In this document: piece by piece, positions 13,242-46,312 of the stretch
Numbering within the stretch: the stretch's first letter is position 1
Layout of the letters: every line of letters starts with the position of its first letter
Source: Octopus vulgaris
Taxonomy: Eukaryota
NCBI GenBank assembly: GCA_951406725.2
Contig: OX597815.1
Span: 62,868,001 to 62,932,000 of the forward strand
DNA: 64,000 nucleotides
Direction of reading: 5' to 3'
The notes under the pieces: generated by a model
Seen by the model: only the letters and a program-made list of their open reading frames with translations
Database searches by the model: none
What the model was told of the DNA's origin: nothing
Made by a program: the position numbers and the translations under genes

Positions 13242-13364
13242 AATTCTTTAACAAGAATAATATTGAAAGTGATTCCGAAGTTTTGTCCGGCTATGCCATC
13301 ATTCGATGATAGCTTAGCTGGTCGAAACGTCGAAGCACTGTCAATACTATTCTTGTAAATGATT
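13242..13364. repeat. Short fold-back whose arms meet inside a truncated hammerhead-like motif
   Basis: The left arm acaagaataatattgaaagtgattccgaagttttgtccggctatgccatc is the imperfect reverse complement of the right arm. The right arm reads GATGA-tagc..ggtc-GAAACGTC. Confidence 0.65.
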
Positions 13365-13439
13365 TATAAATTAGCACTTATAAAATACATTGATTAATAC
13401 TTCAGTTGAATGAAAATCGATTTTACTTTTTGTTATAAC

Positions 13440-13838
13440 TTAAATTTTCAGCCGAGGTTGACTTTGTTTTTCATCCCTTCGTGGTCGATAAAATAAGTGC
13501 CAGGTGAGCATTGGGGTCGGCATATCTCATCAGCAGCCCTCCACCCCCACCAAAAAAATTGCAAGCACTTTTGCCGATAATAGAAATAATTATAACTTAG
13601 CATAAAAACAAGCATTTATGTATATGTATATGAATTTCAAATTTTGGCGAGAGGCTACCAAGTTCGTGGTAGGCGGCGAGTCGATTACATCGACACCAGT
13701 ACACAACTGGTACTTATTCATCGATGCCAAAAGAATGAACGGTAAAATCGACCTCGGGGAAATTTGAACACAGAACATAAAGACAGACAAAAGGCTGCTA
13801 AGCATTTCGCTCGGTTTACTAACGACTCTGTCAGCTCC
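13440..13838. mobile_element. Two tail-to-tail copies of SINE family B (13440-13590 +, 13635-13838 -)
   Basis: Diagnostic body ccgaggtcgactttgcctttcatcctttcggggtcgataaa...agtaccag, repeated many times in the window. Confidence 0.75.
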
Positions 13839-14024
13839 ATTGTACATACGTGTATGTATGTATGTATATATATATATATATATATATATATATATATATA
13901 TATATATAGATTCAGTTGAATATGGTACTTAAGTTAAAGGCACCAGAATTTGGCATGGTACTATTCATATAATTCAAAATGGGGTGATTATAACCAAAAT
14001 TAGCAAAAAGGATATCCAAAGGTA

Positions 14025-14112
14025 ATGCAGTACGATCGTTTCATGCGGCTTCATTTAATTAAACAATGCAAGTATTACATCAGTTAAAATGTAGAGCAAT
14101 CTTCAGCTGCAT
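14025..14112 (-). ncRNA. Type I hammerhead ribozyme motif
   Basis: atgcag-CTGAAGA-ttgc...gcat-GAAAC-gatc-GTA-ctgcat; 6-bp stem I and palindromic ACGATCGT stem III. Confidence 0.75.
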
Positions 14113-14172
14113 ATAAATATAGAATTTAGTTAAAAATGAATCTTTTCAATCTAACTAAAATTCTATATTTAT

Positions 14173-14258
14173 ATGCAGCTGAAGATTGCTCTACATTTTA
14201 AATCTCATGTAATACTTGCATTGTTTAAATGAAGTCGCATGAAACGATCGTACTGCAT
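14173..14258 (+). ncRNA. Type I hammerhead ribozyme motif
   Basis: atgcag(14173)-CTGAAGA(14179)-ttgc...gcat-GAAAC(14241)-gatc-GTA(14250-52)-ctgcat. Confidence 0.75.
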
Positions 14259-14931
14259 TACCTTTGGATATTCTTGTTGCTTATTTTGATATATATATAT
14301 ATGTGTGTGTGTGTGTATGCATACATATATACATACATACATGCATACATACATACATACATACATACATACATACAAACAATATGAGATTCTACTAGAG
14401 TAGATGCAAGCGCTTATATATGATTTATAGGAACATGTGACATAAAAATCTGTAAATGTAAAACCATCCAGGTTTCTGAGTACCTTATTTCTTCTAATAT
14501 ATAATACCTGTACATCGCCCCAAACCTTCTAATATATAAAGATGTATACACACACACACACACACACACACACACACACACACACACACACATATCATAT
14601 AATGCTGAATGCTGAAATTGTTCAACTGTCGCAATAGATATTTTCGTTCATTTAACCTTGTCTTGCTACTAATTCCTACTTTTATAAAACTACTCTTCTT
14701 TTAAGTTCTTTATTTTCATAAAATTAGCTGGCGATAGACGTGTTACATACGTACGTACATACATATATGCATATGCACATACATACATATATATATATAT
14801 ATATATATATATATATATATATATATATATATATATACATACATATATATATATACGTATATATATATATATATATATATATATATATATATATATATAT
14901 ATATATATATACACACATATATACATATGTA

Positions 14932-15325
14932 TAGGCATAGGAGTGGCTGTGTGCTAAGTAGCTTGTTTACCAACTACATAGTTCCGGGTTTAGTCCTAAT
15001 GCGTGGCACCTAGGGCAAGTGTCTTCTACTATAGCCTCGGGCCGACCAAAGCCTTGTGCGTGGATTTAGTAGGGGGAAACTGAAAGAAGTCCGTCATATA
15101 TATATGTATGTATATATATGTATGTGTGTGTATGTGTTTGTGCGTTTGTGTTTGTCCCCCTAACATCGCTTGACAACTGGTGTTGGTGTGTTTACGATGT
15201 CGAATCTTAATGGCATAAATAAATACTGGGATTGATTCATTTGACTAAAAATAAATTCTCCAAGGCGGTACCCCAGCATGGCCACATTCTAATGACTGAA
15301 GCAAGTAAAACCAAAAAGGAAATAG
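14932..15325 (+). mobile_element. tRNA-derived SINE, family A (best copy)
   Basis: Head ggcataggagtggctgtgtgctaagtagc...ccgggtttagtcc (A/B-box-like), CORE-like cctagggcaagtg, internal (TA/TG)n, and the conserved 3' end. Confidence 0.8.
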
Positions 15326-16584
15326 AATATATATATATATATATATATATATATATATATATATGTATATGTATATAACAACGTTGTGTATGTATATATA
15401 TATACATACATATATATATATATATATATATATATATATATATATATATATATACATACACAACGTTGTTATATTCTGGGTGCCATATGTACGTTTCTTT
15501 GATATTTCTACTAATCTTCCCTCCATCCCAACCACAGAAATCTTATATTTGTTTATTGTTGTCTCTTTCAGTTCAATTTTTTCTTTATTTACTCAAAGGA
15601 CTTGTCTTACGTTCGGGGTGAAACGTTTGGTTTCTTCGCAAACACGTTGGTGTTCTGTTTTTTTTCTTTTCTTTTTTTTATCTATAAATCCTCTGTTATG
15701 TTTTGGCGTGGATCTCTTGTTCAAGCTACTCTGGCGTCTCCGGAATGTCTTCAAATGTTGTACAATATAGATACTTATTTTTTTATTCTATTCTGCTGGT
15801 TTTTCTATTGTTCTACTTTTGTTTGACTTTTCCGGATTTCACAAACAATAGGCATATTCGTGTTTTCCTTCCATCGTTTTTACACGAAATCTATTAACAA
15901 CGATAATAATAATAATAATAATAATAATAATAATAATAATAATAATAATAATAATAATAATAAGAAGAAGAAGAAGAAGAAGAAGAAGAAGAAGAAGAAA
16001 AAGAAGAAGAAGAAAGACAATACACAACACGTATTCTGCGTATTCGTTAATCACAGCCAAATATAACAACACAAACCAAGCAACTCACTTTACACAATCA
16101 TTAAACGATGATACAACGCACACTCTAACATAAATGGTAGCCATTTTATTGGAACACAATCTCAAACAACTTATTAACGATACAAATGATAGCCAATAAT
16201 ATATTTACATTCTACACATTCAACACACGGCACTGTAACACGTAACCCAACTCTCTCGGCATATATCTACATAATTACCACATGACATAAACTTATCCGA
16301 TACATGTAGGCGAATATTACTGCCCAACATATACTACAGTTTTGAGAATTGTTTTAGGTTCCTTTGGAGTTGAAAGGACAAAATAAGAAACAGTCAGGTC
16401 GATGTACTCTGAATCGAGGATAAAAAAATCTTACATAAATGATGCAAAATGAAATGGTACAAAAATGTGACGAAGAATCCTCCAGATCCGAGTTAATCTT
16501 ACAGATGAAAACAAATGCCTTTTTCCAGATGCAGCGTTCGTCCTATCGTGTATGGCGAAAATAGTCTACTCACACGTAGAAGTC

Positions 16585-44908: not shown

Positions 44909-45039
44909 TTGGGGAAATTTCGAACATGGATTCTCATTCCTAAGGTATTATTATTATTATTATTATCATTATTATTATTATTATTATTATTATTATTATT
45001 ATTATTATTATTATTATTATCATTATTATTATTATTCAG

Positions 45040-45112
45040 GTCACTGCTTGGAATCGAACTCGGAATCCTTGGGTTAGTAGCGCGCGCTCTTAACCACTAC
45101 ACCATATGCCCG
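45040..45112 (-). promoter_or_regulatory. tRNA-derived Pol III internal promoter (A and B boxes)
   Basis: A box TGGTGTAGTGG (45104-45094) and B box GAGTTCGATTCC (45061-45050), with tRNA-like spacing. Confidence 0.75.
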
Positions 45113-45140
45113 AAGGCATATGACGTAGTGGTTTCCCCAA

Positions 45141-45186
45141 GATACCTGATGAAGGCTGTAGGGTATATCAGCCGAAACGTTGTGTT
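45141..45186 (+). ncRNA. Minimal type I hammerhead ribozyme motif
   Basis: gatac-CTGATGA-a-ggctg..cagcc-GAAAC-GTT-gtgtt (stem I has G-U pairs). Confidence 0.65.
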
Positions 45187-45223
45187 AACAATAAACAAGA
45201 TGATGACAAATATCCGTCAATTG

Positions 45224-45533
45224 TTTTGTTGTTTTTGTTCCTTATCGAGCCATGCCTGGCACATAATGGCCGATTTCCCGGTTTCCTTGGCCTATAGGTT
45301 CCCCACCTGGACGGGACGCGGTCCGTCGCAGGTGAACTGCAAGATGCAGGAGGAAAGAGTGAGAGAAAGTCGTGGCGAAAGAATCAGCAGAAGTTCGCCA
45401 TTACCTTCTGCCGGAGCCGCGTAGAGCTTAGGTGTTTCGCTCATAAACACATACATCGCCCGGTCTGAGATTCGAACCCGCGATCCCTCGACCGCGATTC
45501 CGCTGCTCTAACGACTAGGCCATGTGCCTCCAC
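45224..45533 (-). mobile_element. tRNA-derived SINE, family C, with (AAC)-rich tail and TSD
   Basis: Head ggaggcacatggcctagtcgttagagc...gggttcgaatctc; TSD ccg(t/g)caattg at 45214-45223 and 45534-45543. Confidence 0.85.
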
Positions 45534-45625
45534 CCGGCAATTGTAAATAATGTAAATAATGTTCATAATTCCTCATCTCTTAAATATAGATCTGTAATAT
45601 ACAGCTTTGTATTATATTTAAATAT

Positions 45626-45842
45626 AAGGCGGTGAACTGGCAGAATCATTAGCACGCCGGATCAAATGCCGCTAAGCATTTTGCTCGTCTTTACTTTTTG
45701 AGGTCAAATTCCGTTGCGGCCGGCTTTGCCTTGCATCATATCTGGGTCGTTAGAATAAGTACCACTCAAGCACTAGGTGTCGACATAATCGACTCGACCC
45801 TCCCGCCATATTTCAGGTCTTGTATCGATAGTAGAAAAGATT
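45626..45842 (+). mobile_element. SINE family B
   Basis: aaggcggtgaactggcagaatcattagcacgccgg...ggtcaaattcc...ctttgcctt..cat...agtacca. Confidence 0.7.
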
Positions 45843-45855
45843 ATATATATATATA

Positions 45856-46312
45856 TATTTAATTTAGAGATAGTATACCCCTACTTCTCACCAAATAAAA
45901 ATATTTTTTATTTTTATTTTAAATACCTACTGTTTTATTCCTTGGCAACACGTGTTTCATGAGGTACACCTCGGGTTCCTAAACCACTTCGTGTTTCCCT
46001 GGAACCCCTCTCAAGATACCACCCCAATCATCAGGCCCTTATAACTTTATCAATGTTCAATACAATAAACTATATTTTAATTTTAAATCCCATAAATATG
46101 TTTAAATTAGGTATGTTTAGGAACCCGAGGATGTACCTCATGAAACACGTGTTGTCAAGGAATAAAACAGTAGGTATTTAAAATAAAAATAAAAATTCTT
46201 TTTATTTGGTGAGAAGTAGGGGTATACTATCTCTAAATTAAAATATATTTCTTCATTGAGAATAATTTGAACCTGTTATGCCGGAATTGTTATTCCCTAA
46301 AAGATCATATTT
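45856..46312. mobile_element. Fold-back element (arms 45856-45985 / 46115-46246, ~65-nt right tail) between (TA)n and (CA)n
   Basis: Near-identical ~130-bp inverted arms; a complete hammerhead on the minus strand. Confidence 0.8.
45944..46037 (-). ncRNA. Type I hammerhead ribozyme motif with extended stem II
   Basis: ggc-CTGATGA-ttggggt...acctcat-GAAAC-acgt-GTT-gcc; palindromic ACACGTGT stem III. Confidence 0.7.

What the first reader, a model, noticed from the sequence alone, without database searches (positions are those of the whole stretch)
13242..46312. Recurrent architecture: microsatellite-associated head-to-head fold-back elements of unrelated sequence, all carrying outward-facing hammerhead ribozyme motifs
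Seen: six long inverted repeats (13242, 13995, 23517, 29369, 44822, 45856) show no obvious primary-sequence similarity to each other. Each contains all or part of stemI-CUGANGA-stemII-GAAAC-(short, often palindromic loop)-GUH-stemI'. The motif always reads on the minus strand in the left arm and the plus strand in the right arm. Stem I differs between families but stays paired (atgcag/ctgcat, gtct/agac, aacac/gtgtt, ggc/gcc, ttcctg/tgggaa). Most have an extra 35-100 nt tail on one side and lie in or beside (TA)n/(CA)n. Established: Penelope-like elements carry minimal type I hammerheads in their pseudo-LTRs and often form inverted structures with a 3' tail. Inference: this is a diverse, high-density population of non-coding, ribozyme-bearing PLE derivatives or retrozyme-like elements. 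Read-through transcripts would form long dsRNA hairpins that sequester the ribozyme, making them candidate ADAR or small-RNA substrates.
Basis: partly seen in the sequence, partly recalled or inferred. Interest (0 to 1): 0.8.

Follow-up and report, generated by a model that had tools for sequence, protein, structure and literature searches.

The report
Inverted Penelope ends, one tRNA-headed
Five of these six DNA fold-backs carry an outward-facing hammerhead ribozyme motif and are likely ordinary truncated insertions of Penelope-like retroelements in their known inverted form, but one likely belongs to a very abundant short element with a tRNA-like promoter that would borrow Penelope enzymes to spread.

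Summary
The observation largely holds. All six inverted repeats exist and are mutually unrelated. Five carry at least one complete minimal type I hammerhead core, always facing outward; the sixth (13242) is cut inside the core. A descriptor finds 8 motifs against 0.06 per shuffle. Rfam finds none. The architecture is already described for Penelope-like elements (PLEs): an inverted 5'-truncated copy, a one-sided tail, a pLTR hammerhead and microsatellite targets. A PLE with its ORF shows the same layout here (L007). None of the six is linked to an ORF, so PLE origin is inferred. The retrozyme and ADAR ideas have no support. It has a tRNA-like A/B-box head, a (TAA)n run, the hammerhead and a tail. 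Its parts are extremely deep in three genomic or likely genomic runs, with repeated head-to-head joints at the head's 5' end. It is likely a Pol III-headed short element mobilised by a PLE (about 55%). I found no report of one outside the Schistosoma Sm-alpha precedent.

The parts
13242..13365 (.). E1 fold-back; both arms start inside the hammerhead core, 3' half of the core intact only in the right arm (13324-13331); abuts (CA)n
13909..13988 (-). E2 one-sided extension (likely tail, about 80 nt) ending at (TA)n
13989..14295 (.). E2 fold-back, arms 95% alike, in (TA)n; complete hammerheads at 14025-14112 (-) and 14173-14258 (+), long stem II, palindromic stem III
23481..23516 (-). E3 one-sided extension (likely tail, 36 nt) ending at (TA)n
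23517..23978 (.). E3 fold-back, arms 81% alike; U3.A8-variant hammerhead at 23663-23709 (-); right-arm copy broken
29368..30067 (.). E4 fold-back with a 380-nt AT/CT-rich spacer; complete hammerheads at 29439-29514 (-) and 29921-29996 (+), long stem II; tail not defined
30069..30124 (-). Separate hammerhead-like motif (one core mismatch, 6-bp stems I and II) of an unrelated element abutting E4's right end and facing it
44820..44946 (-). E5 left copy, 3' part: linker, complete minimal hammerhead (44863-44908) and arm end without tail
44946..45036 (-). E5 internal (TAA)n run
45037..45111 (-). E5 tRNA-like head: A box at 45104, B box 45 nt downstream; not called by ARAGORN or Rfam
45115..45224 (+). 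E5 right (inverted) copy: first 19 nt of the head joined at a TT overlap to the hammerhead unit (hammerhead 45141-45186)
45225..45537 (-). Later nested SINE-like insertion with a 7-bp target-site duplication (45218-45224 / 45538-45544); not part of E5
   Evidence: joints 45216-45224 to 45538-45551 show the form without it
45545..45610 (+). E5 tail (about 60 nt), as deep as the hammerhead unit in all laid runs
45859..46241 (.). E6 fold-back, arms 98% alike; complete hammerhead at 45944-46037 (-) with a 69-nt stem II (z -3.1); right arm holds only the 3' half
46245..46314 (+). E6 tail (about 70 nt) ending at (CA)n; covered by related copies in the laid runs
62230..63200 (+). Broken PLE ORF remnant (RT motifs, linker, start of GIY-YIG region); shows that PLEs occur in this genome, not linked to any of the six

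Best explanation
The six fold-backs are head-to-head pairs of short, unrelated 3' ends, five with a complete hammerhead motif facing outward, and they are likely dead 5'-truncated insertions made by Penelope-like retroelement (PLE) enzymes. Inferred mechanism: the GIY-YIG nuclease cuts both strands of AT-rich or microsatellite DNA; reverse transcription starts from each nick near the RNA 3' end, at one of two internal start sites; both cDNAs stop early and are joined in the middle. This would give outward-facing hammerheads, unequal arms and a tail on one side only. E1-E4 and E6 cannot be told from stubs of autonomous PLEs. E5 likely comes from a non-coding unit of about 300-350 nt (tRNA-like Pol III head, (TAA)n, minimal hammerhead, tail) that would be copied in trans by a PLE. 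The hammerheads are predicted to be inactive at these loci: minimal motifs need a same-strand partner, and read-through RNA would pair the two arms.
For: Shown: motif excess over shuffles. The motifs fit the PLE minimal consensus seen in the supplement of PMC4209133: one unpaired base after A9, short or palindromic stem III; the U3.A8 variant is described there too. One-sided extensions in E2, E3, E5, E6; the E5 and E6 tails are covered by related copies. Microsatellite ends 6 of 12 against 1.9%. Positive control: among 79 PLE loci from metagenomes the descriptor finds a sense hammerhead 113-273 nt after the ORF in 8 of 33 eligible loci and nothing in 10 shuffles. L007 has a 594-nt inverted 5' copy with both hammerheads facing outward around a PLE ORF. 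The window holds a PLE RT remnant whose relatives carry RT and GIY-YIG. Literature: inverted copy, tail and microsatellite bias (PMC8557442); both strands cut and extended, and two internal RT starts define the tail (PMC11167929). For E5: one A/B-box pair in the window against 0.06 per shuffle; the head's 5' end sits at the fold-back centre and is duplicated inverted; 6 of 15 displayed joints join head positions 45103-45111 to differently truncated inverted copies of the unit, each in two or three of runs X1, X3, X4.
Against: No arm or spacer holds RT or endonuclease coding sequence, and no genome is held, so no family was linked to an ORF. BLAST of the elements against the 79 PLE loci gave no significant hit (best E 0.06). 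The descriptor found a downstream hammerhead in only 8 of 33 eligible control loci. E1 has no complete core. E3, E4 stem III is not palindromic. E4 and E5 are not in microsatellites and E4's tail is undefined. The joining step in the middle is my inference; PMC8557442 calls it unresolved. For E5, head-(TAA)n-hammerhead on one strand is seen at this locus only: the laid stretch stopped at 45040. The supporting joints have 21-29 letters on the short side at 80% likeness, which the tool flags as weak, and 399 joints were not displayed. ARAGORN and Rfam do not call the head a tRNA.
Confidence: 0.8

Rival explanations
1. For E5 only: the tRNA-like head plus (TAA)n is an independent short SINE that inserted into the centre of an ordinary PLE fold-back, or the hammerhead unit tends to insert beside such heads.
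For: Short tandem tails are usual for SINEs (general knowledge). A second SINE did insert into the right arm. Head depth is about a third to a half of the hammerhead unit's. Same-strand linkage is seen at one locus only.
Against: No target-site duplication around the head; the sequence upstream of it is an inverted copy of its own first 19 nt. Joints from the head's 5' end to several truncation points of the unit recur in three runs and at least two organism labels. Lower head depth is also what 5' truncation gives.
Confidence: 0.25
2. The elements are non-LTR retrozymes that self-cleave, circularise and spread as small RNAs.
For: Type I hammerheads in short non-coding repeats; a 2026 preprint derives retrozymes from PLE pLTRs.
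Against: Retrozymes are defined as head-to-tail tandems with a hammerhead in at least two consecutive units, mostly canonical. All six here are single inverted pairs with minimal motifs, and the self-BLAST shows no tandem unit. Tandem arrays of the same families elsewhere are not excluded.
Confidence: 0.07
3. The fold-backs are kept by selection as dsRNA hairpins that silence the ribozyme and feed ADAR editing or small-RNA pathways.
For: Read-through RNA would fold into long stable hairpins.
Against: The arms decay like neutral DNA: 80-98% identity, transitions 26 of 38 in E3 and 13 of 21 in E4. One arm is interrupted by a SINE. I recognised only transposon ORFs in the window. Folding follows from any inverted repeat.
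Confidence: 0.05
4. They are non-autonomous DNA transposons (MITE or foldback type) with long terminal inverted repeats.
For: Inverted arms and TA-rich flanks.
Against: Ends are asymmetric and carry hammerhead motifs far above chance. The real Tc1-type element in the window (7793-8738, DDE_3 hit, symmetric ends in TA) looks different and has no hammerhead.
Confidence: 0.03

Closest known systems
Truncated PLE insertions with dual minimal hammerheads on opposite strands (Cervera and de la Pena 2014, PMC4209133)
   Same: Minimal type I motifs, unrelated families in one genome, pairs 100-700 bp apart on opposite strands, U3.A8 variant
   Different: Here several have a very long stem II (49-69 nt); the density is about ten motifs in 64 kb; no ORF link could be tested
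PLE inverted-repeat insertion with tail (Penelope/Poseidon, Neptune, Naiad; PMC8557442, PMC11167929)
   Same: Inverted 5'-truncated copy, extension at one end, AT-rich or microsatellite targets; seen here in L007 with an ORF
   Different: No coding sequence left; tails 36-80 nt against the 30-40 bp usually quoted; Naiads lack hammerheads
Schistosoma Sm-alpha / Sj-alpha SINE-like elements (seen only through the review PMC6765202)
   Same: Pol III promoter followed by a hammerhead in a short non-coding repeat, like E5
   Different: Those occur as tandem repeats with an active ribozyme; E5 has a minimal motif, a (TAA)n spacer, a tail and head-to-head inversions
TRIMp3 elements Helenus, Ajax, Cassandra (PMC10886601)
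   Same: A small-RNA promoter grafted on a non-autonomous retroelement that is not a LINE partner
   Different: Those depend on LTR retrotransposons and have LTRs, PBS, PPT and target-site duplications
Non-LTR retrozymes (PMC7229834; bioRxiv 10.64898/2026.07.22.740005)
   Same: Short, non-coding, type I hammerhead, proposed PLE dependence
   Different: Head-to-tail tandems and circular RNAs, said to lack promoters (PMC7761336); not the layout here
Octopus tRNA-derived SINEs of Ohshima and Okada 1994 (seen only as a citation; names OK/OR1 recalled, OR2 in PMC4758252)
   Same: If the host is an octopus (recalled resemblance, untested), E5 or the nested SINE may be one of them
   Different: Sequences not available to me, so identity is untested; no hammerhead or PLE link seen in the passages read

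Membership tests
Penelope-like element insertion | Linked RT plus GIY-YIG ORF | tested here: inconclusive
   No coding sequence in arms or spacers; an unlinked PLE remnant at 62.2-63.2 kb; no genome held; no significant BLAST hit to 79 PLE loci
Penelope-like element insertion | Minimal type I hammerhead near the 3' end | tested here: met
   Complete core in 5 of 6 elements; E1 truncated inside the core
Penelope-like element insertion | Inverted 5'-truncated copy at the 5' end | tested here: met
   6 of 6 head-to-head; same layout as ORF-bearing L007
Penelope-like element insertion | Tail at one end only | tested here: met
   E2, E3, E5, E6; E5 and E6 tails covered by related copies; E1 and E4 undefined
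Penelope-like element insertion | AT-rich or microsatellite target | tested here: met
   6 of 12 ends within 3 nt of a run against 1.9%; not E4 or E5
Non-LTR retrozyme | Two or more head-to-tail units, each with a hammerhead | tested here: not met
   No tandem unit in the window; the rest of the genome not testable
Non-LTR retrozyme | Self-cleavage and circular RNA | not testable with these tools
   Only contigs were available
SINE (E5) | tRNA-like head with A and B boxes | tested here: met
   One A/B pair 45 nt apart, 0.06 per shuffle (pattern written after seeing the sequence); most related copies carry the better A-box base at 45101; not called by ARAGORN or Rfam
SINE (E5) | High copy number, short, non-coding | tested here: met
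   Summed depth 0.9-3.4 million over head, hammerhead and tail bins in X1, against 48 for a locus-specific contig; rough, not a copy count
SINE (E5) | LINE-type 3' end and target-site duplication | tested here: not met
   3' end is a hammerhead plus one-sided tail; the insertion is inverted; no duplication seen
SINE (E5) | Pol III transcription | not testable with these tools
   No T4 run in the 292-nt left copy or the tail is compatible but weak
MITE / foldback DNA transposon | Symmetric terminal inverted repeats with target-site duplication | tested here: not met
   One-sided extensions in 4 of 6; contrast with the Tc1-type element

The most novel reading that the evidence does not exclude
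E5 is a member of a very high-copy family of tRNA-headed, Pol III-transcribed short elements that carry a PLE minimal hammerhead and tail and are copied by Penelope-like enzymes rather than by LINEs: a Penelope-dependent SINE, the PLE counterpart of LINE-dependent SINEs and LTR-dependent TRIMp3. Its fixed 5' end would make the PLE inversion step directly mappable in thousands of copies.
Probability: 0.55. Interest if true: 0.62.

Novelty: new variant of a known kind. Interest (0 to 1): 0.4.

Why it matters
The architecture as reported is known and matters mainly for annotation: such loci look like MITEs or miRNA hairpins (Rfam gave sub-threshold miRNA matches over E6) and Rfam misses the ribozyme. 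The E5 lead matters more. SINEs are described as LINE-dependent; a tRNA-headed element mobilised by a PLE would add a third pairing and show which 3' RNA features a PLE needs in trans. How PLE inverted repeats form is named as an open question in PMC8557442. A short family with a defined 5' end and many head-to-head junctions would let it be tested by counting junctions, and would supply a small natural template for the in vitro PLE system.

Tried and rejected
Rfam: no family at gathering threshold in the window; no hammerhead or tRNA among the 150 of 332 rows shown at E up to 1 or the 8 rows over E5-E6 at E up to 10. The built-in inverted-repeat finder was swamped by microsatellites. No genome held. 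An exact E5 hammerhead pattern found 0 matches in viral, metagenome and prokaryote collections. PLE relatives in viral contigs: none of 47 candidate stretches. I tried to show head-hammerhead linkage at other loci through spurious translated frames: no hits; the query is low-complexity, so this says nothing. Expression: no RNA holder listed. Run X13 is only guessed to be RNA; its A>G and T>C places (7, 8) match the DNA runs (8-10, 8-9), but contigs of related copies cannot show editing. Earlier scan notes: none. I first read E3 as lacking a hammerhead; one search corrected that. The 44541 and 16342 hits are doubtful. A weak match between the E4 spacer and the PLE remnant's 3' region (score 45, shuffle maximum 39) is low-complexity and was not used. 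A fold of the E5 3' end with its tail gave nothing decisive. Literature on a PLE-dependent SINE: searches listed none beyond Sm-alpha and retrozymes; I judged most rows from titles and abstract starts. Lunse et al. 2017 is not held; SINEBase supplements could not be read; Repbase and Dfam were not searchable. Any of these may already hold the family.
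Full report
Setting. The window is AT-rich animal-type DNA; about 22% is short tandem repeat. The ORFs I could recognise are transposon remnants: a LINE with endonuclease and RT at 37.5-40.1 kb, a DDE transposase at 8.2-8.6 kb, another RT-like remnant at 0.15-1.3 kb, and a broken PLE ORF at 62.2-63.2 kb. No genome is held. The repeat landscape resembles octopus DNA as I recall it; no call names the organism, and run labels are coded.

Observation. Arm identities are 80-98%. The six do not resemble each other (0 of 15 pairs above shuffles). Rfam does not detect the ribozymes, so I used descriptors. Strict: 3 loci against 0.025. With a longer stem II, widened after inspection: 8 against 0.06 in 200 shuffles, 7 of them in E2, E4, E5, E6 and one solo at 58228. 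With the U3.A8 core: E3's left arm is added. E1 is cut inside the core in both arms. All complete motifs in fold-backs face outward, but this is only 5-6 independent events. Stem II folds better than its shuffles in E4, E5 and E6 (z -2.1 to -3.9) and less clearly in E2 and E3 (z -0.5 to -1.7). E2, E3 and E6 sit in microsatellites at both ends, E1 at one; E4 and E5 do not.

What it is. This layout is described. PMC4209133 (parts 1-2 of 4 of the text and passages of one supplement read) reports minimal type I hammerheads in PLE pLTRs, many unrelated families per genome, pairs 100-700 bp apart on opposite strands ascribed to truncated PLEs, the U3.A8 variant, no cleavage by monomers and weak cleavage by dimers. 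PMC8557442 (passages and section 15) describes the inverted 5'-truncated copy, the one-sided tail and the microsatellite bias, and says their formation is not understood. PMC11167929 (parts 1-2 of 4) shows a PLE protein cutting and extending both strands of AT-rich DNA from two internal RT starts that bound the tail, with ribozyme cleavage not required. As a control I fetched 79 PLE loci, the best of 507 confirmed stretches, using relatives of the window's own remnant (20 hits; RT and sub-threshold or passing GIY-YIG matches in 2 of 3 scanned). The descriptor found 14 motifs, none in 10 shuffles; 8 of 33 eligible loci had one 113-273 nt after the ORF. L007 has a 594-nt inverted copy upstream of a truncated ORF with both hammerheads facing outward. 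The window's fold-backs are the short form of this. No direct link to an ORF was obtained.

Mechanism. Shown: anatomy, motifs, tails, flanks. From the literature: double-strand cleavage and two RT starts. Inferred: two cDNAs primed from opposite nicks, each truncated, joined head to head. E1 (both arms cut at the same point), E6 (right arm shorter by the 5' half of the ribozyme) and E4 (380-nt spacer) differ only in where each cDNA would have stopped. The ribozymes are predicted to be passengers at these loci. Read-through RNA would fold back, but no transcription or editing evidence exists either way.

E5. Read on the minus strand, the left copy is a 75-nt tRNA-like head (45111-45037; A box and B box 45 nt apart, the only such pair in the window, 0.06 per shuffle), (TAA)n, a linker of about 40 nt, the hammerhead and the arm end. 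The right copy starts three bases away with the first 19 nt of the same head, inverted, then jumps to the hammerhead unit. A later SINE with a 7-bp duplication splits the right arm from its tail. I laid 4 of the 24 listed runs on 45040-46310 at 80% likeness. Head, hammerhead and tail bins have summed depths of 0.9-1.1, 2.1-3.3 and 3.4 million in X1, against about 10 thousand for E6 and 48 for a locus-specific contig; X3 is similar and X4 shows the same pattern at lower depth. This suggests tens of thousands of copies for E5 and hundreds for E6, as a rough order only. Loose ends before 45132 match the linker of the left copy, so related copies continue as the left copy does. Of 15 joints displayed (399 hidden), 6 run from the head's 5' end (45103-45111) to 45145, 45193 or 45538-45549, that is, head-to-head fusions with differently truncated inverted copies; 7 show the unit without the nested SINE; 2 concern other repeats. 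Two further joints link the arm end to head position 45090-45091, with their kind not shown. I read this as the head belonging to the mobile unit (about 75%) and the unit being moved by PLE enzymes (about 55% for both together). Limits: short joint sides, contigs only, same-strand linkage seen once, and three protein searches for it blank.

Comparison. The nearest precedent is Schistosoma Sm-alpha, a Pol III promoter followed by a hammerhead in tandem repeats (review PMC6765202, passages). Retrozymes are tandem (preprint 10.64898/2026.07.22.740005, part 1 of 5 and passages; PMC7229834 and PMC7761336, passages). TRIMp3 is the LTR analogue, and that paper does not mention Penelope (PMC10886601, passages). 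An octopus repeat annotation lists many PLE and unclassified SINE families and has no mention of ribozymes in its main text (PMC13282606, part 1 of 3 and passages; supplement not read). PMC4758252, PMC3531059 and PMC6962438 were seen as passages only. Five searches listed no PLE-dependent SINE; Repbase, Dfam, SINEBase tables, Lunse 2017 and Ohshima and Okada 1994 could not be read and may already contain this family.

Verdict. E5 is a likely new variant and carries the remaining interest. Overall 0.40.

Noticed in passing
window 36427-37324: Fold-back with arms of about 245 nt (81% alike) around a degenerate telomere-like (CCCTAA)n run; no hammerhead core, no ORF; looks like a non-autonomous DNA transposon.
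   Followed up: partly
window 7793-8738: Tc1-type element with symmetric inverted ends in TA and a DDE_3 transposase fragment; used as a contrast.
   Followed up: yes
window 30069-30124 (-): A further hammerhead-like motif with 6-bp stems I and II ends right at E4's right end, tail to tail; possibly one PLE end inserted at another.
   Followed up: partly
window 58160-58232 (-), 57757-57792 (+), 16339-16402 (+): Solo hammerhead-like motifs without an inverted partner; 57761 has one core mismatch and ends at (TA)n; 16342 is doubtful.
   Followed up: partly
window 55829-56209 and 58271-58679: Near-identical (99-100%) direct duplication of about 400 nt, 2.4 kb apart, with a mariner-like remnant between; a recent duplication or an assembly artefact.
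   Followed up: no
window 62230-63200 (+): Broken PLE ORF with a Cys-rich linker (Neptune-like by recalled motif), followed by a long CT-rich region running to the window end; its own pLTR was not found inside the window.
   Followed up: partly
window 45225-45537 (-): Very abundant SINE-like element with its own tRNA-like head and a 7-bp target-site duplication, nested in E5; deeper than E5 in all four laid runs.
   Followed up: partly
window 45115-45133 and joints at 45090-45091: The E5 head is broken near its nucleotide 19-21 both here and in two frequent joints; a recurrent RT stop or microhomology point is possible.
   Followed up: no
L028 2932 (-): A U3.A8-variant hammerhead lies about 1 kb upstream of a PLE ORF in a metagenome contig; no matching inverted arm was found.
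   Followed up: no
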